DNA of 64,000 nucleotides from an uncultured virus (IMG/VR IMGVR_UViG_3300031234_000003). Taxonomy: Duplodnaviria > Heunggongvirae > Uroviricota > Caudoviricetes. Position 1 is the first letter of the stretch. Each line of letters begins with the position of its first letter. The notes beneath the pieces are model-generated. The model was not told the DNA's origin, ran no database searches, and saw nothing but the letters and a program-made list of their open reading frames with translations. Location: IMG/VR virus record IMGVR_UViG_3300031234_000003; one strand, written 5' to 3'. The translations under genes were made by a program, and so were the position numbers. Below are positions 1,824 to 23,735 of the stretch, in pieces.

Positions 1824-2306
1824 ATGGGTCAATGGAAAAACTACGAATTCAAGGGTTGTCCAAGCTGTGGGGAGAAAGATTTAACCAAGTTCGATACTCA
1901 TAAGAACCGTCGATCTGGTGTTCAGACTTACTGCAAAGCGTGCCAGCATCTCATCAAGAACCGTCCCGACCGCGTTCGCAAGTACCTCGTTCTCAACAAG
2001 CACCATATAACTCCTGAACAGTATGCGGCTCGGATGGCGGATCAAGCGGGCGTCTGTGCTATCTGTCGGCAAGCTCCATCCAGAAGGTATCTGGGCATCG
2101 ACCATGACCATTCATGCTGTTCGGGTTATTGGTCTTGCGGGGAGTGCATTCGTGGCCTCCTCTGTAGCCGATGCAACACCATGTTGGGCATGGCGATGGA
2201 CAATCCCGAAACCCTCAGAGAGGCGGCGAGGTACATCGAAAACTACCTAGCTTCAAAAAATTTCGATAATCCTATCCAAAATTCGGAATTCCGTGGTATT
2301 ATATAG
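1824..2306 (+). CDS. Endonuclease VII-like (His-Me finger) nuclease, probably a free-standing homing endonuclease
   Basis: N-terminal CxxC...YCKAC zinc finger; CAIC...IDHDH...IRGLLCSRCNTMLG motif typical of the recombination endonuclease VII family. Confidence 0.85.
   Translation: MGQWKNYEFKGCPSCGEKDLTKFDTHKNRRSGVQTYCKACQHLIKNRPDRVRKYLVLNKHHITPEQYAARMADQAGVCAICRQAPSRRYLGIDHDHSCCSGYWSCGECIRGLLCSRCNTMLGMAMDNPETLREAARYIENYLASKNFDNPIQNSEFRGII
2271..2302 (+). promoter_or_regulatory. Promoter of tRNA operon 1 (CCTATC-N20-TATTAT)
   Basis: The same motif and 26-nt spacing recur upstream of tRNA operon 2 and several other genes. Confidence 0.65.
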
Positions 2307-2345
2307 AAGTTGGCTCACCGCAAGAAGGTGACCCGGACACACAAA

Positions 2346-2420
2346 ATGATCGCTATCAGCATATCATCGTTATCGTCTAGTAGCTCCTCACGGGGCGACG
2401 GCATCGGTGTGTGCTTGTAA
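2346..2420 (+). CDS. Putative attenuator leader peptide (24 aa, MIAISISSLSSSSSSRGDGIGVCL)
   Basis: GGA upstream of ATG; codons 5-15 are AGC ATA TCA TCG TTA TCG TCT AGT AGC TCC TCA; followed by a terminator just before the Ser/Leu/Ile tRNA cluster. Confidence 0.8.
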   Translation: MIAISISSLSSSSSSRGDGIGVCL

Positions 2421-2454
2421 GTATCTGAAAACAAGCAGATTAGATTCACCGAGC

Positions 2455-2487
2455 AGCCGCCAGAAATTGGGCGGCTTTTGTGTTTTT
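2455..2487 (+). terminator. Intrinsic terminator (attenuator) upstream of tRNA operon 1
   Basis: AGCCGCC/GGCGGCT stem followed by TTTGTGTTTTT. Confidence 0.8.
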
Positions 2488-2500
2488 GGACATAAAGTAC

Positions 2501-2593
2501 GGAAGCGTGGCGTAACGGTATCGCAGCAGGTTGCTACCCTGTCCTCCCGAGTTTACCTCGGGAGTCCGAGTTCGAATCTCGGCGCTTCCGCCA
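2501..2593 (+). tRNA. tRNA-Ser(GCT)
   Basis: Cloverleaf, long variable arm, TTCGAAT T-loop, encoded CCA. Confidence 0.93.
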
Positions 2594-2594
2594 T

Positions 2595-2686
2595 GGAGAG
2601 TTGGGCGAGTGGTTTATGCCGCACGCTTGGAAAGCGTGTATCCCGCGCAAGCGGGATCAGAGGTTCGAATCCTCTACTCTCCGCCA
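2595..2686 (+). tRNA. tRNA-Ser(GGA)
   Basis: Cloverleaf, CACGC-TTGGAAA-GCGTG anticodon arm, long variable arm, CCA. Confidence 0.95.
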
Positions 2687-2705
2687 AATTTGAGTATTAA
2701 ATCGC

Positions 2706-3233
2706 ATGGATACTAATGCGAATTGTAAGAAAGCCGAGCAACTTGGAATGCCGTTCGGCACAGCGAGTAACCGCCTCAAGCAACGCCTGTTTTTCGGACT
2801 GCTGGTAAAGCTAGGCGACAACGTTTGTTTCAAATGCGGCAAACTGATCGAGAAGGCCAGCGAGCTTTCCATTGAGCACAAGAAGGATTGGCTCGACGTT
2901 GATCCGCAGCTTTTCTGGGCGGAAGACAACATTGCGTACTCGCACCGTAAGTGCAACAAGGCGGCTCGAAGGACGCCAAAGACTGGCAGGCATGGAACAC
3001 ACGGCCTGTATACTCTGGGTTGTCGTTGTAAGCCGTGCACAGACGCTCACGTTGCTTATAACAACGAATGGCGTTGGCAAAAGGGATTGCGTAAGAAAAA
3101 GTTTGGTAGGGTTGGCACATTGGCAAGTCCGACTGTCTCGAAAACAGTTATGCCTACGGGCATTGGGAGTTCAACTCTCCCTCCTACCGCCAGTTCGGTG
3201 AGCTTGGTACATGGGCAAGTCCGACCGTCTTGA
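2706..3233 (+). CDS. HNH-like nuclease inserted in the tRNA cluster
   Basis: CFKCG...SIEH...DNIAYSHRKCN motif; C-terminal HGT..YTLGCRCKPC; the frame runs into two tRNA-Ser genes. Confidence 0.7.
   Translation: MDTNANCKKAEQLGMPFGTASNRLKQRLFFGLLVKLGDNVCFKCGKLIEKASELSIEHKKDWLDVDPQLFWAEDNIAYSHRKCNKAARRTPKTGRHGTHGLYTLGCRCKPCTDAHVAYNNEWRWQKGLRKKKFGRVGTLASPTVSKTVMPTGIGSSTLPPTASSVSLVHGQVRPS
3105..3192 (+). tRNA. tRNA-Ser(CGA)
   Basis: ACTGT-CTCGAAA-ACAGT anticodon arm, long variable arm, CCA. Confidence 0.9.
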
Positions 3234-3290
3234 AAACGGCTATGCTTCAGAGATGGGGCATTGGCAGTTCAACTCTGCCGCTCACCGCCA
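3197..3290 (+). tRNA. tRNA-Ser(TGA)
   Basis: CCGT-CTTGAAA-ACGG anticodon arm, long variable arm, CCA. Confidence 0.9.
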
Positions 3291-3689
3291 GATTTGACTC
3301 ACGTGCCTAATGTGTGCCGATGTTTGGCCTCGTGACCCGCAAGGGATATGAGAAGCAGAAGATCAAATATTGCAGTATCATAAGGGTATGAAGCCTTACG
3401 AACCATGCGTCGAAGACGCCACAGCACATATCCATGTTGATTGGGAGACACACGAGAGCACGGGGAAGTTTGTTCCGTACTCGAAGATATTTTGCAGTGT
3501 GTGTCCGCCGTCAACAGCAGCGGAGAGCGAAGAGGAGTACCGCAAGTACGCGGCATACGAGAAGCGAGAAGCTCTGAGGTACGCCACACGGCGACCGAGC
3601 AAGTCGCTTCGGTTGCGGTTGTATCGTCACCGCATCCTGATTATCAGCGGACTTTTGCTGGTAGCCTACTTCGTGATTCATTGGATTTT

Positions 3690-3767
3690 GCCCGGGTGAT
3701 GCAACTGGCAGACATTTCCCACTTAAAACGGGAATTTTTGGGAGTTCGAGTCTCCTCCCGGGCACCA
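3690..3767 (+). tRNA. tRNA-Leu(TAA), short variable region
   Basis: GCCCGGG/CCCGGGC acceptor, CTTAAAA loop, TTCGAGT T-loop, ACCA. Confidence 0.85.
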
Positions 3768-3771
3768 GTTT

Positions 3772-3865
3772 AGAGGGTAGCATTGGTGTGCGGGTGGGCC
3801 TTATAAACCTGCAATCGCGGCTGATTACCGTACTCGGACGGGTTCGATTCCCGTACCCTCTACCA
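3772..3865 (+). tRNA. tRNA-Ile(TAT), atypical with long variable arm
   Basis: AGAGGGT/ACCCTCT acceptor, CTTATAA loop, TTCGATT T-loop, ACCA. Confidence 0.75.
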
Positions 3866-3896
3866 CTTTTCCCCCGCCACGTGGTATTATCCTATA

Positions 3897-4253: not shown

Positions 4254-4279
4254 TATACTGATCGTGGATGGAGAAGTAA

Positions 4280-6324: not shown

Positions 6325-6336
6325 AGGGAGGGTTCA

Positions 6337-6531: not shown

Positions 6532-6593
6532 CCCGTTGATTCCACAACGTTAAAACCTAGCCAAAACCCGAACTTTTACGGTAGAATGGGGGT

Positions 6594-9099: not shown

Positions 9100-9108
9100 G
9101 GAGGCAGT

Positions 9109-11603: not shown

Positions 11604-12665
11604 TGACCGATTTCGAAATTCGATTCACGCCCCGTGAGAAGAACATGGATCAGCGTCCGCCCGGAGCGCGAGAGCTTATCAACGCCCTTGGGGATTACGC
11701 GGAGGGCACGAAAACGCTGTCGAAGCAGGATGCCGCCGACGCCCACAACTACATCTGTGCGCTGGAATCCAAGGTTTGTGGGCTTCACCACGAACTGGAA
11801 GCGATGAAGCAGCAGAAGTCCGACCGCCTCACCCATCTGTTGAAAGACCGCGAGGCCGCGCTCGGAATACCGATATGAAATTTGTGAAAGTCACCTTCAT
11901 AACGGATGACGGCGAAGAGATCGAAACGACGCCGCAGGAATTCAAACTGCGGCTGGTGTACCCGGGTCAAACGACGCTCACCATTCCAGCGAAGGAAGAG
12001 AGAATGTGCAGGCCGCTGGTTAACTTCCCATGTGGGTTTAGACTGTGAAAGTCATCTTTGAGACGGACGAGGGCAAGAAGTACGAAGTTACGCCAGAGCA
12101 AATGCGCCTGACACAAATTAGGCCGAAGTCGGCGGCACTTCAAATACCCGCCGACGATGACTTAGTGGACGTACTGGTGTTCGACTGCGTACTGACACTG
12201 GAGGGACGGAAATGAACTTCGGACACGGAGAAGGGTGCACCTGCCGCGAGTGCCATCGCGTTCGCCATCTGTTGGCTCAATGCGAAGACGCTATCCGGGG
12301 CGCGAGCCGAGCAATCAACACGCTCGACAGGTATCAGACCGACCGTCTCGTCGAGCAGGCGGAATCGGCTCTGGGAAGGAAGCTCTGATGGAACTCGTAG
12401 AACCGTACACCGACGTTCGGGAGATGACTCCCGAAGTGCTGCTCGAACTCACGCAGTCCCACAAATATCAACAGGTCAAACGCTCGTTCCCGCAAGACAT
12501 CGGCCTGCACAGCAGGTTGGTCATTTCGCAGGAAGACATCGAGAACATGGGCGAGACCCTCAAGATGATCGTGTTCTTCGTTTCGCCCGCCATTATCCGT
12601 GGCGCAGTTGAACTGGCGAAAGAGAAGAGCGTCCTCGGGGTCAACTCGAACTGGCTGAGGTAGTC

Positions 12666-13118
12666 ATGGAAAACGAAGAACGTGGTGGTGTGGATTGGCC
12701 CGCAAAAGCAACCGACGAGTGCTTTCCCGATGTTCCCAAGGGAGGCGAAACCAGAAAGAAACGCGAGGGTTTTGAGTTTGTCTACGCCGACATCGTAGGT
12801 AGTTGGTACATGTCGCCAGAGACGTTCGTGCGGATGGACGGCAGCGAGCAGAAGGACATCATGCCGGGGCATTTCGGCTTCCTGATTCGCTGGGGCGTCA
12901 AGAATTATGGCTTCGGTGAATATTCGGTGAAGTTCGGCACCGATGGCAAGATCGAAGTGCAGGACGAGTTCAGCGGTCCTGAGTTCTCAAAGGCGTTGTT
13001 CGCCTATCTGGGGCAGAAGGTCGCGGAAATCGGCGAGCACGACCACCAGCGAGAAGAGAAAAAGAAACAGGAAGAAGCCGCGAGGATCAACGAAGCGGGG
13101 GAGCCTGATGTTTCCTAA
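12666..13118 (+). CDS. hypothetical protein
   Basis: 150-aa ORF with GAGGT RBS. Confidence 0.65.
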   Translation: MENEERGGVDWPAKATDECFPDVPKGGETRKKREGFEFVYADIVGSWYMSPETFVRMDGSEQKDIMPGHFGFLIRWGVKNYGFGEYSVKFGTDGKIEVQDEFSGPEFSKALFAYLGQKVAEIGEHDHQREEKKKQEEAARINEAGEPDVS

Positions 13119-13521
13119 CACCTCGAAGCCTACCAAATTGCAGTTGGAGACGCTCACTAAGCTGGCTCTTCCCGAAGGACTAATGTCTATTACCGTAGGC
13201 CGCATGACAAAGGGGTGCCTAGCCGTACTCAAGAGAGCCCTCCAAGACATCATCGAGTTGCCGCAGCCTGACGGACACGACTGCGACGACGATCAGGTGA
13301 TTGAACTGTTGGCGGACATGATCGAAAAAGAGGAAGAGAAAGAGGAGTAACATGGCGTGGAAGACTTTCACCCTCTATGAACCGCCTTCGGACGGGGCCT
13401 CAACCAATGGCAGGCCCGTCGAAGCTCAACTCGAAATCATCGAGGCTGAGGGCTACGAAATTAAATTTGTATTCAAGGAGTCCGCGAGGTATACTGTTCT
13501 CGCGAGGAAAAAGGCGCACTA

Positions 13522-14463
13522 ATGGACCTCTTTGAACAACTCAAGGCGAACAAGTTCCCCTACACGGACAACCTCATCCATCTGTTCCGGGGTGGGTCTG
13601 ACCTCCATGGGGCGCAACTTGTGAACAAGCACGATGACGACTGGTACGGCGTTTACGTCGAGCCGCCAGAGATGGTCATCGGGCTAAAGGACTACCCTCA
13701 CTACGTGTGGTCGTCTGCGGGCGACACGAAGCGGAACGTTCCCGGCGACATGGACATCTGCTTCTATTCGCTGCGGAAGTGGGCGAAGCTCGCCTCGGGT
13801 GGGAATCCAACTTGCCTGTCATACCTCTTTGCCGACAATACGTTACCTACCACTGATCTATGGCAAGAGGTACGGAACATGCGGACCCTCTTCCTGAGCA
13901 AGGCATGTGCGGAGCAGTTCCGTGGATTTGCTATGGCTCAGCGCCAGCGGTACATGGGTGAGCGTGGGCAGGGTAAGCATGGGCAACGTCCCGAGCTTGA
14001 GGAGAAGTTCGGCTTTGACACCAAGGCCGCCATGCACGTGATGCGACTCCTCGGCGAGGGGATTGAACTCATGCAGGCTGGTGAGATCACCTACCCGCGT
14101 CCGAACAAGAGCCTGCTGATTGCCGTTCGAGAGGGCAAGTACGATCAGGCATTCCTCAAGGATGCGACCGACATCCTATTTGCCGATCTGGACAAGGCAC
14201 AGGCGGAATCCAACCTGCCCGATCAAGTTGATCGTGAGGCTATCTCACGGTTCTTGACCAAGTTCTATCTCAAAGTCTGGGGAAGAGACGATTGTGCGAC
14301 CAACCGTATCTTGGCACGGGGGCTGGGGCTCGCCTGTCGCTGGATTGCTGGGCACCTGCGGGCCGATGAGCGGGCGGACGGGCACCCGGCGTGGGAAGAA
14401 TGGCGTGACGAGTCGGTTGTTAAGGTCGCCATGATCGACATGGCAATGCGAGCGGAGGACTAA
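13522..14463 (+). CDS. Pol-beta superfamily nucleotidyltransferase (YcgL/RlaP-like)
   Basis: GGSDLHG...DDDWYGVY, GNPTCL and FDTKAAMHVMRLL motifs. Confidence 0.85.
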   Translation: MDLFEQLKANKFPYTDNLIHLFRGGSDLHGAQLVNKHDDDWYGVYVEPPEMVIGLKDYPHYVWSSAGDTKRNVPGDMDICFYSLRKWAKLASGGNPTCLSYLFADNTLPTTDLWQEVRNMRTLFLSKACAEQFRGFAMAQRQRYMGERGQGKHGQRPELEEKFGFDTKAAMHVMRLLGEGIELMQAGEITYPRPNKSLLIAVREGKYDQAFLKDATDILFADLDKAQAESNLPDQVDREAISRFLTKFYLKVWGRDDCATNRILARGLGLACRWIAGHLRADERADGHPAWEEWRDESVVKVAMIDMAMRAED

Positions 14464-14554
14464 TGCCTCAAGTACCATGTGTGGGTGAGGACTGCTGGAT
14501 GTGCCTGATGCAAGCCGAGATTGAGGGCTTGACGGCACCATATTGGGGCGCGTG

Positions 14555-14830
14555 ATGACGGGCGTCTGTGAACTCTGTGACCGTGAACGGCACGATATCA
14601 CGGATCACCACCTGATTCCCCGCACCCTTCATGGCAACAAGCGGGTCAAGGCGGCGTTCCCTAAGGAACTCCTGAAAAAGACCGCTCCGTTGTGCAAGCC
14701 GTGCCACAAGCAGATACACGAGTTCTTTACGGAGAAAGTGTTGGGCTGGCACTACAACACGATTGAGAAATTGAAGGCTCATCCCGAGGTCCAGAAATGG
14801 ATCGCATGGGTCGGAAAGAAGACATTCTGA
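14555..14830 (+). CDS. small HNH-family protein
   Basis: CELCDR...TDHHLIPR...LCKPCHKQIH. Confidence 0.8.
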   Translation: MTGVCELCDRERHDITDHHLIPRTLHGNKRVKAAFPKELLKKTAPLCKPCHKQIHEFFTEKVLGWHYNTIEKLKAHPEVQKWIAWVGKKTF

Positions 14831-15806
14831 TGCTGGAAGTCGATCCATTTTTAGCCATCATCTGCAAACCCGAAGAGCATCCAGTTGGGGATTCGGTCGT
14901 GCACAATGGTGCCGAGTACATCATCGTCAAGCGGGTGCCTCGCAAAGACGGTACGGTACAGTGCTGGCTTGGGAGGGAAGTATAATGCCGAGGCTTAAGA
15001 TAGGAACTGGATCATGGCCGTATAAACGGAGATGGCGAGACGGTCCTACTTGGGCTTGGCTTTGCCAGATACTCGGTCATCAAAAGGAGTGGTATCACTG
15101 GTACGCCAGTGCGGGGGACCAGTTGGGTACGGAAATTGCCCGTGCATTGGGCTGGGGAAGTGGTCAAATAAAACCGCATTGGCATTTTCACGGAACTAAC
15201 TCCGTGAACGGCATGATTTGCGGTAGGTGCGGAAAGGCAGGCATCTAATGGACAACGAAATCCAAGCATTGGTAAACACGGCACTCGATCAGGCCGCTGA
15301 GAATGGCTATGACGAGAGTCCATCCGATCCTGCCGATGTCGCCATCAGTTTAGCAGACGAAGACTCGGACATCGAGAGGCTGATTTCGGATCAGTTCGAC
15401 GGCGACGAGACCATCCTCATCCCCTTCATCAAGGTCTGGCAGCAGAAACAGCAGAGCCAGCTATAATGTACAGCGATATGATCGGTCGCATTCGGGCTGA
15501 CGTGCATTACATGCGGCAAGCCATGGATGAGATTCGTGGGGATGGCTTCGGTCGAGCGGGCTATCTCAAGAGTGAGTTCAAGAAAGCCATCCGCCGTCTA
15601 GAGTCTCTCCAAGCCATGTTGGAAGAAGGCCCTCTACCTGAAGCTGCCGTAGACACCAACCCCGACTGCTGTGGTCATCTGATCGACAACATCCCCGGTT
15701 GCACCTGCCGTCTCATCGCCAGATCGCTAACTAAGAAATCTTCTGGTATTTGATTTCTTTTTCATGTATGCTCCCATGCAAGTGATCGGCAAAATAGGAC
15801 GTGTCT

Positions 15807-16355
15807 ATGACTCCCGGGCGTCGTTTGAAGTGGCTCAACTGTTCGATCTCTGCTTTTTTTCTTATCCCCGCATACATCCTTGCATCATTTTTCCATCCGA
15901 GTGCTTCAACTTGGATCATTGGGCTGTTCGCCGGGTTGCTCTGGGCTAACTGGTTCGAGTACGCCTACCACCGCTGGCTGGATCATACACCGGGTCTCCG
16001 CTGGGAGAAGCTCCACCGCGAGCACCACAAGGCTCCGCTCGATGAGACACACGTCAACCTCGGCAGTACCCCCTTCGACACGTTCATGATGTTCATCGTC
16101 AACTGCACACCAGTCGTTTGTGCAGACATCTGGTATCAGAAGGGCTTCTCCGCTCCTGTGATGGTCGCCTTCGTCATCTACGTCCTCGTTATGGAAGAGG
16201 TCCACTGGCGAGTACACATGGGCGGCTACGTGCCTCAGTGGATCAAGAGCTATCACTTGTCCCACCACGCCATGGGCGACACCCCCACTGGCGGAAAGAC
16301 CAAATTCAACATTTTTGTCCCCATCTTTGACTGGGTTTTTGGTACAATGGGGTAA
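15807..16355 (+). CDS. fatty acid hydroxylase / sterol desaturase family membrane protein
   Basis: Hydrophobic segments and His boxes EYAYHRWLDH, HREHH, EEVHWRVH, YHLSHH; FDWVFGT end. Confidence 0.85.
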   Translation: MTPGRRLKWLNCSISAFFLIPAYILASFFHPSASTWIIGLFAGLLWANWFEYAYHRWLDHTPGLRWEKLHREHHKAPLDETHVNLGSTPFDTFMMFIVNCTPVVCADIWYQKGFSAPVMVAFVIYVLVMEEVHWRVHMGGYVPQWIKSYHLSHHAMGDTPTGGKTKFNIFVPIFDWVFGTMG

Positions 16356-17089
16356 TGCCGACCAACATCATCATTGCAGAGGAAGAAGGCTACCTCTGGC
16401 ACCATCCCCTCGCCAAACGAATCTACGCCATCCTCAACGACATCCGGTATACCCAGCGGGACGTCACGTGGATGATCTCGGGCAATATCGCTTGGTACGC
16501 GGGCGGCGGACTCATGGATGAATACCGCCCCATCAGCTTTCGCATCATGGTCAGCAACCTTAAAGACGTGCAGAGCGGCGAGTCGATCAGTTTGTTCATG
16601 CCGCCAATCGTAGTTCACCCCGAGATGAAGGACGAGTGGATTCTCCAGACGGCGTACCGCGCTATCCGAAGCTTCGAACTACACGAAATGGACGAGCATT
16701 TCTTCTACAAGGACGAGAAGATTTTCGACCCGCACAGAGGCGAAACGCAGACAATCCATGGGTAGGGTGACCAAAGCGAACGGGCAATGGCTGTTCGGCT
16801 ACTGCTGGCGATACGCCCGAGCCCTCGAAGACCTCACAGGATGGCCTGTGCGCTTCGTTAACGGTCTGAGCCGCACTGTGTACACGGAATACGTCCACTG
16901 CGTTGTCCAGAAACCTGATGGCACCCTGTTCGACGCCAGCGGTCCTGTGAGCATCAAACAGCTTGAGAGGCGATATCTGCTCAAAGGAATTTACTTGACC
17001 AAACCGGGTCCCGAACACTACCATGAATACGACGCTACCGAGGCAATGGTAGCCGCCCGAAAACAATTGCAAAAATAAATTTTGATTTT

Positions 17090-17121
17090 CCTATCGAAAA
17101 CTCTGACTTTCATGGTAGTAT
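17090..17121 (+). promoter_or_regulatory. Promoter of tRNA operon 2 (CCTATC-N20-TAGTAT)
   Basis: Matches the operon-1 promoter, including the downstream ATAGAAG. Confidence 0.65.
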
Positions 17122-17139
17122 ATAGAAGCTGAGGAACAC

Positions 17140-17271
17140 ATGACCTTTAATAAAGCCAACTCGAACGTCGCCGCGACCCCAGAACATCAGGGCGTGGGCG
17201 GTAAGCGCCAGCGGAATAATCGCTGGTCGGTCGGTGGGCAGGTCTGCTCAGTTGGAGTCGTAGGAATCTAA
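17140..17271 (+). CDS. Putative attenuator leader peptide (43 aa, MTFNKANSNVAATPEHQGVGGKRQRNNRWSVGGQVCSVGVVGI)
   Basis: GAGGA RBS; cluster of His/Gln/Lys/Arg/Asn/Trp codons; followed by a terminator before the Trp/His/Arg/Asn/Gln/Lys tRNA cluster. Confidence 0.78.
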   Translation: MTFNKANSNVAATPEHQGVGGKRQRNNRWSVGGQVCSVGVVGI

Positions 17272-17300
17272 AGCAAGAGACTCCAAATCGAGATCAAACA

Positions 17301-17333
17301 GACCCGCCAAAGTTGGTGGGTTTTTGCATTTTT
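17301..17333 (+). terminator. Intrinsic terminator (attenuator) upstream of tRNA operon 2
   Basis: GACCCGCC/GGTGGGTT stem followed by TTTGCATTTTT. Confidence 0.78.
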
Positions 17334-17347
17334 AGTGGGTTTTCTGT

Positions 17348-17435
17348 AGGGGTGAAGGGCAACCCGGTTCGGCCCAGCGGTCTCCAAAACCGCCGACTTC
17401 GGTCATTGTGGGTTCAAATCCCACCACCCCTGCCA
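17348..17435 (+). tRNA. tRNA-Trp(CCA), atypical with long variable arm
   Basis: AGGGGTG/CACCCCT acceptor, GCGGT-CTCCAAA-ACCGC, GAC-TTCG-GTC variable hairpin, GCCA. Confidence 0.8.
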
Positions 17436-17473
17436 AATTTAAGTCGCATCGTGAATCAACCGATGTGCAGATT

Positions 17474-17553
17474 GTGGCGATGGCAACTCTGGGTATTGTT
17501 GCACTGGTCTGTGAAACCAGTTCTGGTGGGTTCGACTCCCACTCGTCACCCCA
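17474..17553 (+). tRNA. tRNA-His(GTG), no encoded G-1
   Basis: CTGGT-CTGTGAA-ACCAG arm, C73, CCA. Confidence 0.85.
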
Positions 17554-17563
17554 AGTTTGATGT

Positions 17564-17640
17564 GGTGGGCATAGTTCAGCGGTCAGAACGTCGGCCTGTG
17601 ACGCCGAATGCCGTGGGTTCGAATCCCACTGTCCACCCCA
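17564..17640 (+). tRNA. tRNA-His(GTG)
   Basis: Canonical cloverleaf with G-1:C73, CCA. Confidence 0.93.
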
Positions 17641-17928
17641 AGTTTTTAAGGCGAGAGAGCACGACAGAGATGATTGAAGGAGGGACCAAGATATTGAACA
17701 GCGGGGACGGAAGCTCGCCCAGCGTGCAGCGGAGAACAGGATTAGTCGCCCCCTCGGGGCAAGATTGGTCCGATGTGCACATCGAGCTTCCGTCTTCAAA
17801 GGGTAAAACTTTAGCGACGGTTGTTGGCAGCCCACTGGATCATGAGTGCCCAGCGTGTGAAGCGCCGAAAGGCGTGGCTTGCAGGTCAGCAACAACGCAT
17901 TACGACCGCGTGAGGTTGATTAGAATTT

Positions 17929-18005
17929 AGTCCCGTAACTCAGCGGAATAGAGTGCCAGCCTCCGAAGCTGGAAGTCGTGGGTTCGAATCCCACCGGGAC
18001 TACCA
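17929..18005 (+). tRNA. tRNA-Arg(CCG)
   Basis: CCAGC-CTCCGAA-GCTGG arm, CCA. Confidence 0.93.
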
Positions 18006-18052
18006 GTTACGAAGGCGTAATCCAGACTTCGTAGTGCTATAATAGAGGCACT

Positions 18053-18460
18053 ATGAACTGTCCCAAATGCGGGAAAGAAAAAGAGGTCGCGTCGGCCTCG
18101 TACTGTCGGGAATGCCAACGAGAGTTTACTCGCGGCGATTACGTTAAGAACAAAGCGGTGTACATCGCTAAAGCAAAGAGGAATGGCGAACGTTACAAGC
18201 GAGAGATGTACGAATGGCTGATGGCGTATTTCAGGAATCATCCATGCGTAGATTGCGGGGAACCTGATCCCGTAGTTCTGGATTTCGATCATCGTGATGG
18301 TGTCAAGAAAGACGATATAATTTCACGATTGATCTGTTGTAAGAAATACCACGCTGCAAAGCTGGAAATTGAAAAATGCGATGTGCGATGTAGTAACTGT
18401 CATCGGCGTCGAACAGCGAAACAGCAAGGTTGGTACTGGTTAAAATTTTTGCACGTGTAG
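18053..18460 (+). CDS. HNH endonuclease within the tRNA cluster
   Basis: CVDCG...LDFDHRD...KCDVRCSNCHRRRT; N-terminal zinc finger. Confidence 0.85.
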   Translation: MNCPKCGKEKEVASASYCRECQREFTRGDYVKNKAVYIAKAKRNGERYKREMYEWLMAYFRNHPCVDCGEPDPVVLDFDHRDGVKKDDIISRLICCKKYHAAKLEIEKCDVRCSNCHRRRTAKQQGWYWLKFLHV

Positions 18461-18527
18461 CTCAGCGGAACAGAGCATCGGTCTACGAAACCGGGGGTCG
18501 CAGGTTCGAATCCTGCCATGTGCACCA
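18451..18527 (+). tRNA. tRNA-Arg(ACG)
   Basis: Canonical cloverleaf, CTACGAA loop, CCA. Confidence 0.93.
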
Positions 18528-18546
18528 AGTTTGGAACGTAGAGGTC

Positions 18547-18610
18547 GGCTGTAGCTCAATTGGCAGAGCACCTCATTGCGAGGAGATGCGGGTTCGAATC
18601 CCGCCAGCCA
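18547..18610 (+). ncRNA. tRNA-like element with truncated anticodon arm
   Basis: Intact D arm (TAGCTCAATTGGCAGAGC) and T arm (GCGGGTTCGAATCCCGC); anticodon arm CCTC-ATTGC-GAGG. Confidence 0.65.
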
Positions 18611-18694
18611 TACGCCGAAACGTTCTAAGGGCAGAGGATAGACAGCGACGGCTGGAACGACGTGAAATCCCTCAAGCCCTCCGGATTTTAGATT

Positions 18695-18771
18695 GGTCCT
18701 ATCGGCAACTGGATAGTCACCTGCGCTTCGAACGCGGATCAGTGTAGGTTCGAATCCTACTAGGATCACCA
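18695..18771 (+). tRNA. tRNA-Arg(TCG)
   Basis: CTGCG-CTTCGAA-CGCGG arm, CCA. Confidence 0.88.
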
Positions 18772-18777
18772 AATTTT

Positions 18778-18864
18778 GCGGGCGTGTCGGCAAATGGACG
18801 CCACGGGCGCTACGAACGCCCAGCCCTTCGGGGAATGCAGGTTCGAGTCCTGTCACTTGCTCCA
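18778..18864 (+). tRNA. tRNA-Arg(ACG), atypical with long variable arm
   Basis: GGGCG-CTACGAA-CGCCC arm, CCC-TTCG-GGG variable hairpin, TCCA. Confidence 0.8.
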
Positions 18865-19028
18865 GTTTATGGAAGAACAGAAACAAAACGAAGGGGTCGA
18901 TAGTCGGAGCAATGCCCTCGGCTGGCATGAACGCAAGAAGCAGGAGCAAGCCAAGGAAGGCTCGACGGTTCACGCAGTGGGTTGTCCCTGCGGATTCTGT
19001 AAGGCAGGTTTTACGAAAGCATAAGTTT

Positions 19029-19114
19029 TGGGATGTAGAGCGTAATGGTAGCGTGCACGACTGTTAATCGTGTGGCGAAAGCCCTTGTAGGTTCGAGTCC
19101 TACCGTCCCAGCCA
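19029..19114 (+). tRNA. tRNA-Asn(GTT), atypical with long variable arm
   Basis: CACGA-CTGTTAA-TCGTG arm, GGC-GAAA-GCC variable hairpin, GCCA. Confidence 0.8.
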
Positions 19115-19277
19115 AATATGTTGACGAAAGAACTGATCGTCGAGTGGAACGCACGGTGTGAGCAACAGTGCCTCGACACAGCTTTCGAAGCGGCAGCCCG
19201 GGGAATGATCGACCTCTCCGAGGAGTTCATGAGATGGGCTCAGGAATGCCGCGAGAAGATTGAGTTTGTTGAAAGAT

Positions 19278-19363
19278 TGGGAAGTAGGAAAATTGGCAAC
19301 CCCAGTGGATTCTGAATCCACCGCCTTAGGGCACTGAAGGTTCGACTCCTTCCTTCCCAGCCA
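19278..19363 (+). tRNA. tRNA-Gln(CTG), atypical with long variable arm
   Basis: GTGGA-TTCTGAA-TCCAC arm, GCC-TTAG-GGC variable hairpin, U1:A72, GCCA. Confidence 0.82.
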
Positions 19364-19374
19364 ATTTTAGATGC

Positions 19375-19450
19375 GGGAGCATAAGCTTAACGGCCAAACT
19401 GCTCGTCTCCAAAACGAGACTTCTAGGTTCGAATCCTAGTGCTCCTGCCA
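19375..19450 (+). tRNA. tRNA-Trp(CCA)
   Basis: CTCGT-CTCCAAA-ACGAG arm, GCCA. Confidence 0.92.
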
Positions 19451-19516
19451 CGAAACGAAAGACGTATACGAGCACGAAACGCAGGCTCAAGTACGAAGCG
19501 AAAGGTTATTAGACAT

Positions 19517-19591
<75 letters not shown>

Positions 19592-19597
19592 TAGTAA

Positions 19598-19677
19598 GCT
19601 GTTGCGAAACGGGAGGCGGGTTCGTCTCGCCCACGCGCTAGTGGGTAATGTCCGTGAGAGTCGGGCGGCGACAGCCA
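19598..19677 (+). ncRNA. highly divergent tRNA-like RNA
   Basis: CTGTTGC/GCGACAG closing stem plus CCA; three internal hairpins including GTCCG-TGAGAGT-CGGGC. Confidence 0.5.
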
Positions 19678-19890
19678 ATTAAGTCTCAACGTGTGGTTTG
19701 TTCGGCGGTGGAGGGTCACCCGTAAAACGGTGCTCCTCATGGAGCGGGCAAGGGATGTCGGCATCGAACAGGGTTTCGACAGCGACTCGGTAAGTGCAGC
19801 CGCATTCGAGGACAGTGAAGAAACACTCCTCGTCGCCCTCGCGGGCAGTGTAGGCTCCAGCTTGCTTCATACTAATGAATACTGAAGTTT

Positions 19891-19966
19891 GGGCGGTTGG
19901 CAGAACTGGATATGCACTCGGCTCTTACCCGAGACTACGAGGGTTCGATTCCCTTGCCGCTCACCA
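19891..19966 (+). tRNA. tRNA-Lys(CTT)
   Basis: CTCGG-CTCTTAC-CCGAG arm, ACCA. Confidence 0.9.
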
Positions 19967-19992
19967 AGTTTTGGAGTATTGTAAGTAGAGAT

Positions 19993-20068
<76 letters not shown>

Positions 20069-20813
20069 AGATTCGAGGTAATTTATGCTGCAAACAAATC
20101 GAGTTCGAGTGCATCAAGGCGGACGGCACGGAGAAAAAGGCACCGTTATTCGAGGACCTTATCGCCACGATCCGCCAACAACCCGATATGGAAACCCTGT
20201 TCGGAATCCGAGGGGGTTTAACCCTGACACGCTCTGGTACACAGTATTGATGGATGAACTAAAGAACGGTAGAGCGGAGACGGAAGAGTTTTGCGACTAC
20301 CAGTTGACCGTGGTGCCGCAGATGCAGTGCGTGCAGTGCAAAAGGATGTTTGAGGATGGCGAAACCCAGACCGCTCCTATGGAGCAATGCCCGAAAGGTG
20401 GGGGTGGAAACCACGCGCTGGTACACCCAGACAATATCGCGACTACTGTGGAAGCATAAAATGCGGCAAGCGTGCCCCCGATGTCTCGGCGATGACGCGG
20501 CAGAGCGTGAAGGTCGGAACTTTGACCCCCTCTACGGCACCGTCGAAATCTACTGCACGTACTGTGGGTCCTTCGTGGACATGATCTGGCGCTGGCAGAC
20601 GGGTGACGCCGAGTGGCAGAAGTTCAGGGATCAAGCGAAGGGCGTAAGGGTATGAAGAAATGCGATGTGTGCGGGTTTGAGGGTCGCTGGCTGACTCACA
20701 TGTGCCCCGGCCCCGCCGATAACGGCAAGATTGATCCAGCGGATGGACGGATGAGGGTGTATCTGTGGTATCCGACGCAGATCATAGACATCCAAGAGAT
20801 TAAGGAACGCAGA

Positions 20814-20890
20814 TTCGGGTTAGCTCAAGCTTAGGCAGAGCAGCCGCGCAAGCGGAAGACTGGCGGGTTCGACTCCCGCCCCCTAAACCA
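20814..20890 (+). ncRNA. tRNA-like element with GCAA tetraloop in place of the anticodon loop
   Basis: D arm TAGCTCAAGCTTAGGCAGAGC, CCGC-GCAA-GCGG, T arm GCGGGTTCGACTCCCGC, ACCA; acceptor stem imperfect. Confidence 0.6.
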
Positions 20891-20926
20891 TCTTTTAGAC
20901 TGATAAGAAGGGAGACAACGTGATTT

Positions 20927-21481
20927 ATGGGAATGGCAGACACATTAGTTCTTGACCTCTCGAACAGGCCCATCGGGTTTGTGAGTTGGCAGCGTGCCGT
21001 CAAGATGTACTGGGAAGACCGTGCCGAAATCGTGAAGGAAGACCCGCACGTTTTCCTGCACTCCCCGTCCATCGAGATGAACATGCCTCGTGTCATCAAG
21101 GCGAAGAACTACGTCGTCAAGCGGCTGAAGTTGAGCGTGCCGTTCTCTCGTCGTAACATCGCCCTGCGTGACAACAGCGAGTGTCAGTATTGTGGCAAGT
21201 TCTTGCACAGTCACGAGTACACTCTGGATCACGTGATCCCGCGTTCGAAGGGTGGATTGTCCACGTGGCTGAACTTGGTCTTGGCTTGCATCAAGTGCAA
21301 CAAGATGAAGAACAACCACACGTTGGCCGAGTCTGGCATGACGCTCCGTAAGAAGCCCATGGAGCCGAAGGCAACCGACCCGCGTTACAACTTCAAGCTG
21401 CACATCAAGAAGCTCCGTCCCGAGTGGAAGGAGTGGGCTGATGGGGGCTGGCTCTACTGGAACGTGGAGTTAGACAAGTAG
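20927..21481 (+). CDS. HNH endonuclease (McrA-like)
   Basis: FSRRNIALRDNSECQYCG...TLDHVIPRSKGG..TWLNLVLACIKCN. Confidence 0.92.
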   Translation: MGMADTLVLDLSNRPIGFVSWQRAVKMYWEDRAEIVKEDPHVFLHSPSIEMNMPRVIKAKNYVVKRLKLSVPFSRRNIALRDNSECQYCGKFLHSHEYTLDHVIPRSKGGLSTWLNLVLACIKCNKMKNNHTLAESGMTLRKKPMEPKATDPRYNFKLHIKKLRPEWKEWADGGWLYWNVELDK

Positions 21482-22226
21482 GATGACACCGAACGGTAAC
21501 ATTTACGAATGTCGCCGTTCGGTGACACCCAAATATTCCCGAACGGGAACATTCCGGGAATGAGATTGGATGCACAATAGGTTGCCCGACAGGGAACATT
21601 TCGTGCACAGGATATAACTATGGCGAGGGAGATTGGCGGCGTCGAGTTCGGATTACGCAGTCTTCCCCTCATGGGTGTAGGTCTGGTGCTGGCAATTAGC
21701 ACTCAGATGACCGACACGAAGAAGCTCTGGGGTATGCTGGCTCTGGAGATCGTTTTAGGAATCGCCGCAATTGGGGCGTGGATTGTGAAGGCATAATGGC
21801 AGGCGTACCGCATATCCGAGGCTGCTGGTTTTGCTTCCTGAATAAGCTGATGGCGACCCTTGGATTCGCCGCGATTGGGATTGTTTGCGTCTGTGCCATG
21901 GTCTGGGATGCGGCCCATCATCACTATCTGACGGCGGCAAAGGATTTGGTGGGTTACTTCATAGCTCTCGTGGCTATCAGCGTGGTGCCGAAGTTGATAG
22001 ATGGCTGGTCGGGGCTTTTGGACAGGGTACTGCCTGATGGTAAATGATCTTCAGGCACTATCGAAAGCATTAACATGGGGTGCCGCTGCCTACGATAGGG
22101 CATCTGAGAAAGAATTAGCCGACCTCATCCTGAAGGATCGGGCTCGGATCGAAGAGGAATTGAATCGGGACGGACAGACAATCGTCACGTTTCGCGGTTG
22201 CCCGTATCGGGTAACCAGAAAAGTTT

Positions 22227-22304
22227 GACTCGGTAGCTCAGTTGGACTAGAGCGTCTCTCTCCTAAAGAGAAGGTCGTGAGTTCGAATCTCACTCGGGTC
22301 ACCA
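22227..22304 (+). tRNA. tRNA-Arg(CCT)
   Basis: TCTCT-CTCCTAA-AGAGA arm, ACCA. Confidence 0.93.
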
Positions 22305-22608
22305 TATTTTATGACGTTCAAAGCGAAGTGGATGCAAAAGTTGAGCCGCTGGCTGTGCGAGCATGACATGCACGCTTGGACATACACGAGGTTGAAGGCT
22401 TTATGGCCTGAGTGCGGCGGGGTTACAGCATGTGCGTTTGACCGTTGCTGTGATGCTTGTGGTAAGATGGAGTCGGGAGCGGACTGGTTCTAGGAGGATC
22501 ACATGCTCGACGTAAAGTTTGACGGCGTGCTCGACGAATTTCTTGCTCAATTGACTGGCGAAGAGGGTATTAGATTACAGATCGCCATGTCGGTCACGGA
22601 GAACAAAG

Positions 22609-22833
22609 ATGCCAGTGCTGACGGTAGAGTTCAACGACAGGATGAACGACATCCTGCAAGAGTTAGCAGATAAGAAGGGTTGCACCAAGGTGGACATCCT
22701 TCGTCGGGCTGTGGCGCTGTACAAGTACATCACCAACGAGCTTCACTGCCGCCGCAAGGATGATTTGGTGCCGAAGCGGTTGGTGATTCGCAACAGTGAA
22801 GATGTGATTCTGAAAGAAGTCATGGTGCCGTAG
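22609..22833 (+). CDS. ribbon-helix-helix (CopG-like) DNA-binding protein
   Basis: LTVEFNDRMNDILQELADKKGCTKVDILRRAVALY pattern. Confidence 0.7.
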   Translation: MPVLTVEFNDRMNDILQELADKKGCTKVDILRRAVALYKYITNELHCRRKDDLVPKRLVIRNSEDVILKEVMVP

Positions 22834-22992
22834 TGGAGTTGAAAGAGTTTCTCATCATAGCGTTGCCGTTCCCGAACTCGACTTTAGAGTCGGAGTACAC
22901 GGAGTTCGCTGTTGATGATGAAACGGCCCTGAAACAGTTTGAAGCTCGGTTCCCGCTATGGCGGGTCAAGAGCGTGACCGAGAAGTAAAGAT

Positions 22993-23066
22993 TGGCACAT
23001 CGTTCAACGGCAGGACCCTTGCCTCTGGAGCAAGGTATCGGGGTTCGAATCCCTGTGTGCCAGCCA
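22993..23066 (+). tRNA. tRNA-Gln(CTG)
   Basis: Canonical cloverleaf, U1:A72, GCCA. Confidence 0.93.
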
Positions 23067-23442
23067 AGTTTTAGAAAGTAGTAGTTGTGAATCGAACGTT
23101 AAAAAACGTTCTACTTGTCGGGCTCGGGGTAGTCATTCCCGGTGCGTCGTTGATATGGCTGTACAAATTCGCCAGCTATGACGCAGAAAAAGAAGATTTT
23201 AGACAGTACGTCGAACAGCGGTTCGACAGGATGAAAGCGGACGAACAGCAATGGTTACACTAAAGATCACACGTACCGCGATGTACCTCGCATATCTGTT
23301 GCAGGTCATCCACGAAGCAGAATAACTATGACTACACTGATTCAAAACTTGTTACCAGCCTTCGCCGCAGGAGCCCTCCTGCTCATTTGCGAAGCTACGC
23401 CGATCCTCTTCACCAGACGAAAACGTTAACCACAATTCGTGT

Positions 23443-23523
23443 GGGCGTGTAGCGGACGGGCCTTCTAAACCCGATCACTGTAATGGACTGAAAATGTGAG
23501 TTCGACCCTCACCACGCCCCCCA
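23443..23523 (+). tRNA. atypical tRNA-Arg(TCT) lacking a normal D arm
   Basis: GGGCGTG/CACGCCC acceptor, CGGG-CCTTCTAAA-CCCG arm, long variable region, T arm, CCA. Confidence 0.65.
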
Positions 23524-23538
23524 AACTTCTTTTCAAAT

Positions 23539-23615
23539 GGGAGCGTGGCAGACTGGGTAATGCACTCGCCTTTTAAGCGATGACCATGTGGGATCGTACC
23601 CCACCGCTCTCACCA
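23539..23615 (+). tRNA. tRNA-Lys(TTT)
   Basis: TCGC-CTTTTAA-GCGA arm, ACCA. Confidence 0.85.
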
Positions 23616-23621
23616 AACTTT

Positions 23622-23705
23622 CCCAGTATGGCAGAACGGTTATGCACCCGACTAATCGGAGACTCGCAAGGGTCAACGGGGGTTCGACTCCCTCTGCTGG
23701 GACCA
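23622..23705 (+). ncRNA. anticodon-less tRNA-like RNA (4-nt loop CTAA)
   Basis: Complete acceptor, D, long variable and T arms plus ACCA; anticodon stem CCGA/TCGG closes only CTAA. Confidence 0.7.
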
Positions 23706-23735
23706 ATTTTCCTCAAGCTGTGGTATTATAGAAGC

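What the first reader, a model, noticed from the sequence alone, without database searches (positions are those of the whole stretch)
17090..23705. Second, independent leader attenuator sensing six amino acids upstream of the Trp/His/Arg/Asn/Gln/Lys tRNA operon
Seen: the same promoter type (17090-17121), a GAGGA RBS, a 43-aa ORF (17140-17271) and a terminator (17301-17333) immediately before the tRNAs. Codons 16-29 read CAT CAG GGC GTG GGC GGT AAG CGC CAG CGG AAT AAT CGC TGG (H Q g v g g K R Q R N N R W). His, Gln, Lys, Arg, Asn and Trp are exactly the six amino acids of the downstream tRNAs. Gln codons are CAG only and the Gln tRNAs are CTG only. The antiterminator would be GGTGG(gcag)GTCTG (17233-17246) with CAGACCCGCC (17299-17308), plus TTGGAGTC (17252-17259) with GACTCCAA (17279-17286). 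The leader sequence is unrelated to leader 1 but has the same geometry, which makes chance unlikely. Caveat: CGA, AGA and AGG codons are absent although tRNAs for them lie downstream. Inference: a multi-input OR-gate sensor for tRNA depletion.
Basis: partly seen in the sequence, partly recalled or inferred. Interest (0 to 1): 0.94.

Follow-up and report, generated by a model that had tools for sequence, protein, structure and literature searches.

The report
Codon-matched attenuator gating phage tRNA genes
A peat-soil phage places a tiny translated test gene and a switchable transcription stop directly in front of a block of tRNA genes, so these tRNAs are probably made mainly when ribosomes read the matching codons slowly; this control is classic for amino-acid synthesis genes, but I found no published case for tRNA genes.

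Summary
Sixteen tRNAs for exactly Trp, His, Arg, Asn, Gln and Lys follow.

Taken alone, this leader is only weakly enriched in those six amino acids (15 of 42 codons, p about 0.05). The case rests on comparison:
- Six metagenome variants keep the frame open through in-frame indels, and each holds all six amino acids before a conserved Trp codon.
- In all six, the folding switch sits at or 1-2 codons before that Trp codon.
- In the cultured relative Tunturi 5, all three tRNA clusters have their own leader ORF and terminator, matched to their own tRNA sets. Three more such cases occur in another large phage.
- The true leader-to-cluster pairing is the best of 40,320 permutations.

Best reading (about 0.7): a ribosome-mediated attenuator that gives demand-driven tRNA supply.

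Caveats: there is no experiment; an internal promoter-like site lies at 18035; and the conserved core is also an RNA hairpin.

Eight literature searches found no published precedent. This scan has noted the same kind of element before on other DNA.

The parts
17089..17128 (+). Promoter motif shared with the Ser/Leu leader. Extended -10: TG at 17113-17114, hexamer 17116-17121. An A/T-rich stretch lies upstream.
   Evidence: 2 sites in the window, 33 of 40 positions identical; the same motif heads 11 related metagenome loci.
17131..17135 (+). Shine-Dalgarno sequence, 4 bases before the start codon.
   Evidence: Kept, with small changes, in the 6 variants.
17140..17271 (+). Leader ORF of 43 codons plus stop. 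Codons 2-29 hold 14 codons for Asn, Lys, His, Gln, Arg and Trp. Codons 30-43 hold 1.
   Evidence: Open in 6 of 6 variants despite indels, all of which are in frame.
17208..17226 (+). Perfect hairpin formed by the last six matching codons (24-29). The stem is invariant in 6 of 6 variants and only the loop varies. Possibly a pause or timing hairpin.
   Evidence: Its role is inferred.
17233..17308 (+). Antiterminator. The outer stem pairs 17237-17249 with 17290-17308. The inner hairpin pairs 17252-17259 with 17279-17286. The stop codon 17269-17271 lies in the inner loop. The 3' strand overlaps the terminator's 5' arm.
   Evidence: MFE -27.3 kcal/mol against -15.1 +/- 2.9 in shuffles, 0 of 300 as low. 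The terminator arm is sequestered at 0.80 against 0.50 +/- 0.16 in shuffles, with 8 of 300 reaching it. The same nested design with different sequence is seen in relatives.
17300..17333 (+). Intrinsic terminator: a 10-pair stem, a 4-base loop and a T-rich tail. It ends 15 bases before the first tRNA.
17348..18005 (+). The first four tRNA genes: Trp-CCA, His-GTG, His-GTG, Arg-CCG. These are the part most surely under the attenuator.
18035..18460 (+). Extended -10-like site (18035-18043) and an HNH homing-endonuclease ORF (18053-18460) inserted in the cluster. This is a possible internal promoter.
   Evidence: The relative L038 has only a 121-base gap here, and the sigma-70 scan reports no promoter-like site on the tRNA strand after its attenuator.
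18451..20068 (+). tRNAs Arg-ACG, a tRNA-like gene with a shortened anticodon loop (18545-18612), Arg-TCG, Arg-ACG, Asn-GTT, Gln-CTG, Trp-CCA, Asn-GTT, Lys-CTT and Lys-CTT.
20085..22226 (+). Protein-coding ORFs lying between tRNAs, including a second HNH endonuclease at 20927-21481.
22227..23702 (+). tRNAs Arg-CCT, Gln-CTG and Lys-TTT, and a long-arm tRNA-like gene (23622-23702). Small ORFs lie between them.
23721..23729 (+). The next extended -10 promoter-like site, 6 bases before the ATG of a lipoprotein-like ORF. It marks the end of the tRNA block.
2270..3862 (+). The sister unit. Same promoter motif (2270-2309), a 24-codon Ser-rich leader (2346-2420) and a terminator (2455-2476 plus T run). 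Then four tRNA-Ser, tRNA-Leu-TAA and a tRNA-like gene with anticodon TAT (3771-3862).

Best explanation
This is a ribosome-mediated (leader-peptide) transcription attenuator placed in front of phage tRNA genes.

Transcription starts at the extended -10 promoter at about 17128, and a ribosome loads on the leader ORF. Two outcomes follow.

- Slow decoding. If the Asn, Lys, His, Gln, Arg or Trp codons in codons 2-29 are read slowly because the matching charged tRNAs are scarce, the ribosome lags. The segment 17233-17308 then stays free and folds into the antiterminator. That fold ties up the 5' arm of the terminator, and RNA polymerase runs on into tRNA-Trp and the tRNAs behind it.
- Fast decoding. 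The ribosome moves into codons 30-43 and to the stop codon, which lies inside the antiterminator's inner hairpin. It melts the antiterminator, the terminator forms, and transcription ends 15 bases before the first tRNA.

A stall at any matching codon has the same effect, so the element behaves as an OR gate. Because the output is the very tRNAs whose shortage is sensed, the circuit is a negative feedback that supplies tRNAs on demand. Demand could arise when the host pool does not fit the phage's codon use, or when the host pool is degraded or cut during infection.

Shown here: the anatomy, its conservation, the match of codons to tRNAs, and the position of the predicted switch. Inferred: translation of the ORF, stalling, regulated read-through, and the nature of the signal.
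For: 1. Anatomy. The promoter, Shine-Dalgarno site, ORF and terminator are contiguous, and only 15 bases separate the T run from tRNA-Trp. No separate promoter fits in that gap.

2. Translation. Six variants (the window, its identical copy L040, and L018, L022, L029, L038, L042) have ORFs of 30-43 codons. All length differences are in frame.

3. Codon content.
- In 6 of 6 variants all six amino acids occur before the conserved Trp codon.
- Matching codons before and after that Trp are: window 14/28 and 1/14; L018 13/24 and 0/13; L022 12/17 and 2/12; L029 14/23 and 3/13; L038 13/26 and 0/13; L042 15/23 and 0/13. Binomial p before the Trp runs from 2e-5 to 3e-3.
- By standard wobble rules (my reading), all 14 matching codons of the window's leader can be read by anticodons encoded downstream.

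4. Switch geometry. I blocked a 28-base ribosome footprint and folded only the RNA made before the terminator's 3' arm. The probability that the 5' arm is sequestered is 0.80 with the A site at any codon up to Trp-29, then 0.51, 0.24 and 0.03 at codons 30-32. The drop lies at or 1-2 codons before the Trp codon in 6 of 6 variants. In the four other leaders it falls at or near the end of the matching block.

5. Tracking.
- Tunturi 5 (PP885688.1) holds all its tRNAs in three blocks. Each block is preceded by a small ORF and one of the best-scoring terminators of the region.
- Whole-ORF matches to the block's own tRNA set are 16/31, 25/36 and 37/48. Among same-length windows of long ORFs, 0 of 5,388, 0 of 5,263 and 2 of 4,963 reach these values.
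- Another large phage record (G004) has three more cases: 7/32, 25/39 and 11/50, with p 6e-4, 0.018 and 4e-4.
- Over the 8 leaders, the true pairing of leaders with tRNA sets gives the highest summed enrichment of all 40,320 permutations. 6 of 8 leaders score best on their own set.

6. Frame. The ORF frame has the most matches in 5 of 5 leaders.

7. RNA. One contig of an RNA library (X23, record 2, 2 mismatches) runs from 17209 across the terminator to 17393, inside tRNA-Trp. This is a weak hint of read-through, because DNA carry-over cannot be excluded.
Against: - Weak on its own. This leader matches at 15/42 against a background of 0.232 (p 0.046; 507 of 10,415 windows do as well). The shifted frames give 10 and 13 of 42. 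Its whole-ORF score is slightly higher on the tRNA set of Tunturi 5 cluster 2 (z 2.1) than on its own set (z 1.8), because of many Gly, Ala and Thr codons.
- Low specificity. 15 of the 29 codons before the switch are for amino acids with no phage tRNA in the window. A stall there would antiterminate too.
- Hairpin ambiguity. The invariant six-codon core (17208-17226) is a perfect hairpin, so its conservation may reflect RNA structure and not codon identity.
- Kinetics required. At equilibrium the terminator wins at every ribosome position (0.87 throughout). The switch therefore has to be kinetic, which folding cannot show.
- Sister leader. For leader 1 of the window, sequestration of the terminator arm is no better than in shuffles (201 of 300 reach it).
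- Extent of control. A promoter-like site at 18035 and protein genes lie inside the block, so the tRNAs after 18005 may be made independently.
- Unrepresented tRNAs. tRNA-Arg-TCG and tRNA-Arg-CCT have no codon in this leader.
- Not universal. In a further large phage (G003) the crude detector found a hairpin in only 6 of 31 gaps, and only 1 had a plausibly matching ORF.
- No direct measurement of transcripts or translation exists.
Confidence: 0.7

Rival explanations
1. A generic translation sensor. The leader and terminator respond to whether ribosomes are available or coupled to the polymerase at all, for instance after host shut-off, and not to particular codons. On this view the amino-acid content of the ORF is secondary.
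For: Half of the codons before the switch are not for the six amino acids. The enrichment of this leader alone is marginal. Any slow ribosome would give the same structural outcome in the scan.
Against: This does not explain why leader content follows the tRNA set of each cluster in 8 leaders from three phages, where the true pairing is the best of 40,320. It also does not explain why all six amino acids are kept in 6 of 6 variants while the surrounding codons turn over.
Confidence: 0.12
2. An RNA-only leader. The structured 5' region acts without translation, for example as a protein- or tRNA-binding switch, a processing signal or a stabilising element for the tRNA precursor. On this view the ORF is incidental.
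For: The most conserved stretch is a perfect hairpin. The leader folds better than shuffles (z -2.83, 1 of 200 shuffles folds as well). The nested helices are kept with changed sequence.
Against: All indels among the variants are in frame and the stop codon keeps its place in the inner loop. The ORF frame has the most matches in 5 of 5 leaders. A good Shine-Dalgarno and ATG are present. No Rfam family matches, T-box included.
Confidence: 0.08
3. An ordinary small gene with its own leaky terminator, followed by tRNAs that are made by constitutive read-through or from internal promoters. The codon match would be chance or shared composition.
For: For this leader alone p is about 0.05. There is an internal promoter-like site at 18035.
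Against: The same arrangement recurs before 2 of 2 clusters in the window, 3 of 3 in Tunturi 5 and 3 clusters in G004, each matched to its own tRNAs. The terminator lies between a promoter and genes that have no promoter of their own within 15 bases.
Confidence: 0.06

Closest known systems
Multivalent leader-peptide transcription attenuators of enterobacterial amino-acid operons: the thr leader for Thr and Ile, and the ilvGMEDA and ilvBN leaders for Ile, Leu and Val. These are named from my own knowledge; I opened no paper on them here.
   Same: A promoter-proximal short ORF rich in the codons to be sensed, an intrinsic terminator, an overlapping antiterminator whose fate depends on where the ribosome stands, and more than one amino acid sensed by one leader.
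   Different: The regulated genes are tRNA genes and not biosynthetic enzymes, so the loop closes on tRNA supply itself. Six amino acids are sensed, and up to nine in Tunturi 5. The element is carried by a phage. There is no sequence or Rfam-family relationship.
T-box riboswitches (Rfam RF00230)
   Same: They read the state of a specific tRNA and decide between a terminator and an antiterminator in a leader.
   Different: A T-box binds the tRNA directly, without translation, and controls synthetase, transport or biosynthesis genes. Here there is no T-box match, and the sensor is a translated ORF.
Cys-rich leaderless short ORFs acting as cysteine-responsive attenuators in mycobacteria (bioRxiv 10.1101/834739; I saw only the search listing and the start of the abstract)
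   Same: Short ORFs at the 5' end of an operon whose codon content sets the response.
   Different: They sense a single amino acid, sit in bacterial operons of protein genes, and regulate no tRNA genes.
Phage tRNA clusters regarded as codon-usage helpers or as replacements for host tRNAs (Bailly-Bechet et al. 2007, cited in PMC11924767, of which I read passages; the counter-defence role is recalled and I read nothing on it)
   Same: Large phages carry many tRNA genes in clusters interspersed with homing endonucleases.
   Different: Those accounts treat the tRNAs as simply expressed. Here each cluster carries a codon-matched gate.
Earlier notes of this scan on other phage genomes (e1-2978539, e1-5985818, e1-5690341 and others; one search lists 103 notes)
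   Same: The same kind of element: a leader ORF written in the amino acids of the tRNA block behind it, joined to a terminator.
   Different: Those notes concern other DNA and are AI notes, mostly unchecked. None concerns this window.

Membership tests
Ribosome-mediated (leader-peptide) transcription attenuators | A short ORF with its own start signals close behind the promoter | tested here: met
   ATG at 17140, Shine-Dalgarno at 17131-17135 and -10 hexamer at 17116-17121. The ORF is open in 6 of 6 variants.
Ribosome-mediated (leader-peptide) transcription attenuators | Enrichment of the codons whose decoding is sensed | tested here: met
   Marginal for this leader alone: 15/42, p 0.046. Clear before the switch: 14/29 against 1/13, Fisher p 0.011. 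Also clear in the family: 12-15 of 17-28 codons, p 2e-5 to 3e-3.
Ribosome-mediated (leader-peptide) transcription attenuators | An intrinsic terminator between the leader ORF and the regulated genes | tested here: met
   Stem at 17300-17323 plus a T run, 15 bases before tRNA-Trp.
Ribosome-mediated (leader-peptide) transcription attenuators | An antiterminator that excludes the terminator and depends on ribosome position | tested here: met
   In the folding model only. Sequestration of the 5' arm is 0.80 up to codon 29 and 0.03-0.24 from codon 31. 8 of 300 shuffles reach 0.80. At equilibrium the terminator always wins, so the switch must be kinetic.
Ribosome-mediated (leader-peptide) transcription attenuators | Read-through rises when the sensed aminoacyl-tRNA is limiting | not testable with these tools
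   This needs reporter or in vitro assays. The only RNA evidence is one bridging contig in an RNA library.
Ribosome-mediated (leader-peptide) transcription attenuators | The regulated genes encode amino-acid biosynthesis, transport or charging functions | tested here: not met
   The genes downstream are tRNA genes and homing endonucleases. This is the point of novelty. It concerns what is regulated, not how.
Curated Rfam leader families (Trp, His, Thr, Leu and other leaders) | A match to a family covariance model at its gathering score | tested here: not met
   Only tRNA matches pass the gathering score in the window. On 17080-17345 the best sub-threshold hits are the rnk leader (21.1 bits against 55) and Trp_leader (14.5 bits against 41).
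T-box riboswitch | A match to RF00230 (specifier loop and T-box sequence) | tested here: not met
   No match at the gathering score or at E up to 10 on the leader.

The most novel reading that the evidence does not exclude
Large phages of several lineages sort their tRNA genes into regulons. Each regulon is headed by a codon-matched leader ORF and attenuator, and together they form a demand-driven tRNA supply system that reads the state of the host's decoding capacity codon by codon. On this reading the system switches on exactly the tRNA block whose host counterparts are scarce or have been cut by tRNA-targeting defences, and which tRNAs share a block is shaped by which shortages occur together. 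In Tunturi 5 the three leaders between them would cover all 20 amino acids.
Probability: 0.45. Interest if true: 0.93.

Novelty: new variant of a known kind. Interest (0 to 1): 0.85.

Why it matters
Phage tRNA genes are usually treated as passively expressed helpers. A gate written in the very codons those tRNAs read would mean several things:
- The phage measures decoding speed and makes tRNAs only on demand.
- tRNA genes can be the output of leader-peptide attenuation, a control so far tied to amino-acid metabolism.
- The grouping of tRNAs into clusters has a regulatory meaning.

It also gives a direct handle on an open question, namely why phages carry tRNAs. One could see which shortage opens which gate.

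The same design is present in Tunturi 5, a cultured phage with a known host, so the idea can be tested at the bench now.

Tried and rejected
- **Own genome.** None is held.
- **Nearest virus record, G001.** It does not cover 1-20000 of the window. Its only tRNA beyond the window is a lone one with anticodon CTA, and the 300 bases read upstream of it show protein-coding sequence with no leader ORF and terminator.
- **IMG/VR scan with the promoter motif.** 5 loci, none related; one holds an unrelated tRNA-Met on the other strand.
- **Relatives of the upstream 106-residue protein.** One weak locus.
- **Relatives of the CCA-adding enzyme.** 5 loci, none with a tRNA cluster nearby. Their whole records were used later.
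- **blastn against named phages.** Only tRNA-sized matches.
- **Equilibrium scan of terminator probability.** Flat at 0.87 for this leader, so uninformative. I replaced it with a scan of the RNA made before the terminator's 3' arm.
- **Column-wise covariation on a MAFFT alignment of six variants.** Too few sequences and too many indels. I replaced it with per-sequence folds.
- **A recalled precedent: a leader ORF before E. coli tRNA-Phe genes.** At pheV of K-12 only about 105 bases separate the upstream gene from the tRNA. I saw a promoter-like stretch there and no leader ORF and terminator. pheU was not checked.
- **RNA runs X23 and X24.** Most laid pieces are short tRNA parts of other organisms, and stretches without cover say nothing.
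- **G003.** Of 31 gaps, 6 had a hairpin and only 1 had a plausibly matching ORF. The detector is crude, requiring a run of four T and a simple hairpin within 110 bases, so this is neither support nor refutation.
- **Literature.** Eight searches and a term search inside the Tunturi paper (0 hits for 'leader' or 'attenuat') found no account of leader-peptide control of tRNA genes. Subscription journals and older papers are not in the library.

Full report
**What the window is.** The window is phage DNA.
- It has small, tightly packed ORFs, three HNH or endonuclease VII genes among tRNA genes, a CCA-adding enzyme (13522-14463), a Ku-like protein and a Lon-like protease. An ORF of 3,883 codons lies on the minus strand.
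- The only named relative I found is the jumbo phage Tunturi 5 of the acidobacterium Tunturiibacter. The 537-residue product of 30982-32595 is 44% identical to it over 69% of its length.
- Near-identical DNA occurs in 22 peat metagenome runs. No whole genome is held for the window.

**The observation.**
- The ORF 17140-17271 has 43 codons.
- A Shine-Dalgarno sequence lies at 17131-17135, and an extended -10 promoter at 17113-17121.
- A terminator with a 10-pair stem (17300-17323) and a T-rich tail runs to 17333.
- The first tRNA starts at 17348, so there is no room for another promoter.
- ARAGORN finds 16 tRNAs up to 23615, for Trp, His, Arg, Asn, Gln and Lys only. Rfam adds two aberrant tRNA-like genes.
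- The promoter belongs to a 40-base motif that is 33/40 identical to the one before the Ser/Leu leader at 2270-2309. The two leader ORFs are unrelated in sequence.

**Is it more than chance?** For this leader alone, barely.
- 15 of its 42 codons encode the six amino acids, against a background of 0.232 (p 0.046). 507 of 10,415 same-length windows in the window's long ORFs do as well.
- The shifted frames give 10 and 13 of 42.

The evidence that follows is therefore comparative.

**Relatives of this leader.** A metagenome scan with the promoter motif gave 29 loci. Six carry this leader type (L040 is identical to the window; the others are L018, L022, L029, L038 and L042). Five carry the Ser/Leu type. 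The other 18 are unrelated and have no tRNA behind the motif.
- The six ORFs have 30 to 43 codons. Every length difference is in frame, and the stop codon keeps its place.
- In 6 of 6 variants all six amino acids occur before a conserved Trp codon. The codons around them turn over.
- Matches before the Trp are 12-15 of 17-28 codons. After it they are 0-3 of 12-14.
- One complication remains. The invariant last six matching codons (17208-17226) form a perfect hairpin, so their strict conservation may be structural.

**The switch.** The naked leader folds with the terminator in place. Its MFE is -72.6 kcal/mol, z is -2.83, and 1 of 200 shuffles folds as well.
- An equilibrium scan was uninformative: terminator probability was 0.87 at every ribosome position.
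- I then asked what the RNA does before the terminator's 3' arm exists, with a 28-base footprint blocked around each A-site codon. The 5' arm is sequestered with probability 0.80 for every A-site codon up to Trp-29. It falls to 0.51, 0.24 and 0.03 at codons 30-32.
An outer stem encloses an inner hairpin whose loop holds the stop codon.
- Its energy (-27.3 kcal/mol) is lower than in all 300 shuffles. Its sequestration value is reached by 8 of 300 shuffles.
- In the relatives the helices have partly different sequences but the same nesting. The drop lies at or 1-2 codons before the Trp codon in 6 of 6 variants.
- In the four other leaders the drop also falls at or near the end of the matching block. 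For the window's Ser/Leu leader, however, sequestration is no better than in shuffles (201 of 300 reach it).

- Tunturi 5 holds all its tRNAs in three blocks.
- Each block follows a small ORF and one of the best-scoring terminators of the region. One of these ORFs is annotated as hypothetical protein gp308.
- The three tRNA sets differ from those of the window, and each ORF matches its own set: 16/31, 25/36 and 37/48. Among same-length windows of long ORFs, 0 of 5,388, 0 of 5,263 and 2 of 4,963 reach these values.
- Another large phage record (G004), reached through a distant CCA-enzyme match, has three more cases: His/Met, a 13-tRNA block, and Pro/Gln. Their p values are 6e-4, 0.018 and 4e-4.
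- Over the 8 leaders, the true pairing of leaders with tRNA sets is the best of all 40,320 permutations, and 6 of 8 leaders score highest on their own set.
- The window's leader 2 is one of the two exceptions: z is 1.8 on its own set and 2.1 on the set of Tunturi 5 cluster 2.
- A third record (G003) showed little. Of 31 gaps, 6 had a hairpin, and 1 of those had a plausible ORF.

**How far the gate reaches.** Only Trp, His, His and Arg-CCG (17348-18005) lie between the terminator and the next promoter-like site.
- That site is at 18035, 9 bases before an HNH endonuclease ORF.
- The relative L038 lacks this insertion. It carries 11 tRNAs of the same six kinds within 2.4 kb, and the sigma-70 scan reports no promoter-like site on the tRNA strand behind its attenuator. 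The ancestral unit was probably contiguous.
- In the window, the tRNAs after 18005 may have an extra, ungated source.
- Protein genes fill 20085-22226. The block ends at a new promoter-like site at 23721.

**Expression.** Two metatranscriptome runs hold small parts of the stretch. One contig runs from 17209 over the terminator into tRNA-Trp with 2 mismatches. This would fit read-through, but DNA in the library cannot be excluded.

**Mechanism and rivals.** I commit to ribosome-mediated attenuation with negative feedback on tRNA supply, at about 0.7.
- More tRNA does not cure an amino-acid shortage, so the sensible signal is scarcity of the tRNAs themselves. This step is inference.
- The rivals are a codon-blind translation sensor (0.12), an RNA-only leader (0.08), and an ordinary small gene with a leaky terminator (0.06).

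**Comparison with what is known.** In design this is a multivalent leader-peptide attenuator.
- It matches no Rfam leader family and no T-box.
- Its output, tRNA genes on a phage, is not what that class is known to regulate.
- Eight literature searches and the Tunturi paper gave no precedent. The library lacks many older and subscription papers.
- A precedent I recalled at E. coli pheV did not hold up.
- This scan has noted the same kind of element on other phage DNA, including a relative of Tunturi 5. Those notes are AI notes. I reached Tunturi 5 independently, before reading them.

Noticed in passing
window 3771-3862 (+): A tRNA-like gene with a long variable arm and anticodon TAT (Ile, codon ATA), directly behind tRNA-Leu-TAA. 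ARAGORN does not call it here but calls its counterpart in L020 tRNA-Ile(tat). Rfam scores it below threshold (31.6 bits on the tRNA-Sec model). The Ser/Leu leader holds three Ile codons, one of them ATA, and its only Leu codon before the switch is TTA, the codon read by the Leu-TAA tRNA.
   Followed up: partly
window 18545-18612 and 23622-23702 (+): Two tRNA-like genes that pass Rfam's tRNA threshold (50.1 and 38.6 bits) but that ARAGORN does not call. The first has a shortened anticodon loop containing TTG. The second has a long variable arm and an irregular anticodon loop.
   Followed up: partly
window 3882, 23721, 25253, 34093, 46624 (+): Extended -10 promoter-like sites, each followed by an ATG only 5-7 bases after the nine-base site. 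This suggests that many genes of this phage are expressed from leaderless or nearly leaderless mRNAs.
   Followed up: no
L044 1363-1437 (-), from G001, the nearest virus record; also L011 4437-4510: Lone tRNAs with anticodon CTA, which would read TAG. ARAGORN labels them Pyl. No leader ORF and terminator is visible in the 300 bases read upstream of the one in G001. They may be amber suppressors.
   Followed up: partly
window 2706-3233, 18053-18460, 20927-21481 (+): HNH or endonuclease VII-type homing endonuclease ORFs lie inside both tRNA clusters. The first runs into tRNA-Ser-CGA. Relatives differ in whether these insertions are present.
   Followed up: partly
L008 17357-17376 (+) (Tunturi 5): A strong terminator directly after the last tRNA of cluster 2. 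That cluster, which includes an RtcB-type ligase gene and a RimK-like gene, is therefore bracketed by an attenuator and a terminator.
   Followed up: no
window 52297-63948 (-): A single ORF of 3,883 codons. I did not examine it.
   Followed up: no
L047, reverse strand, about 18396-18551 (G004): A leader ORF ending in an alternating run of Pro and Gln codons stands directly before a two-gene block of tRNA-Pro and tRNA-Gln. It is the most transparent example of the design that I saw.
   Followed up: partly
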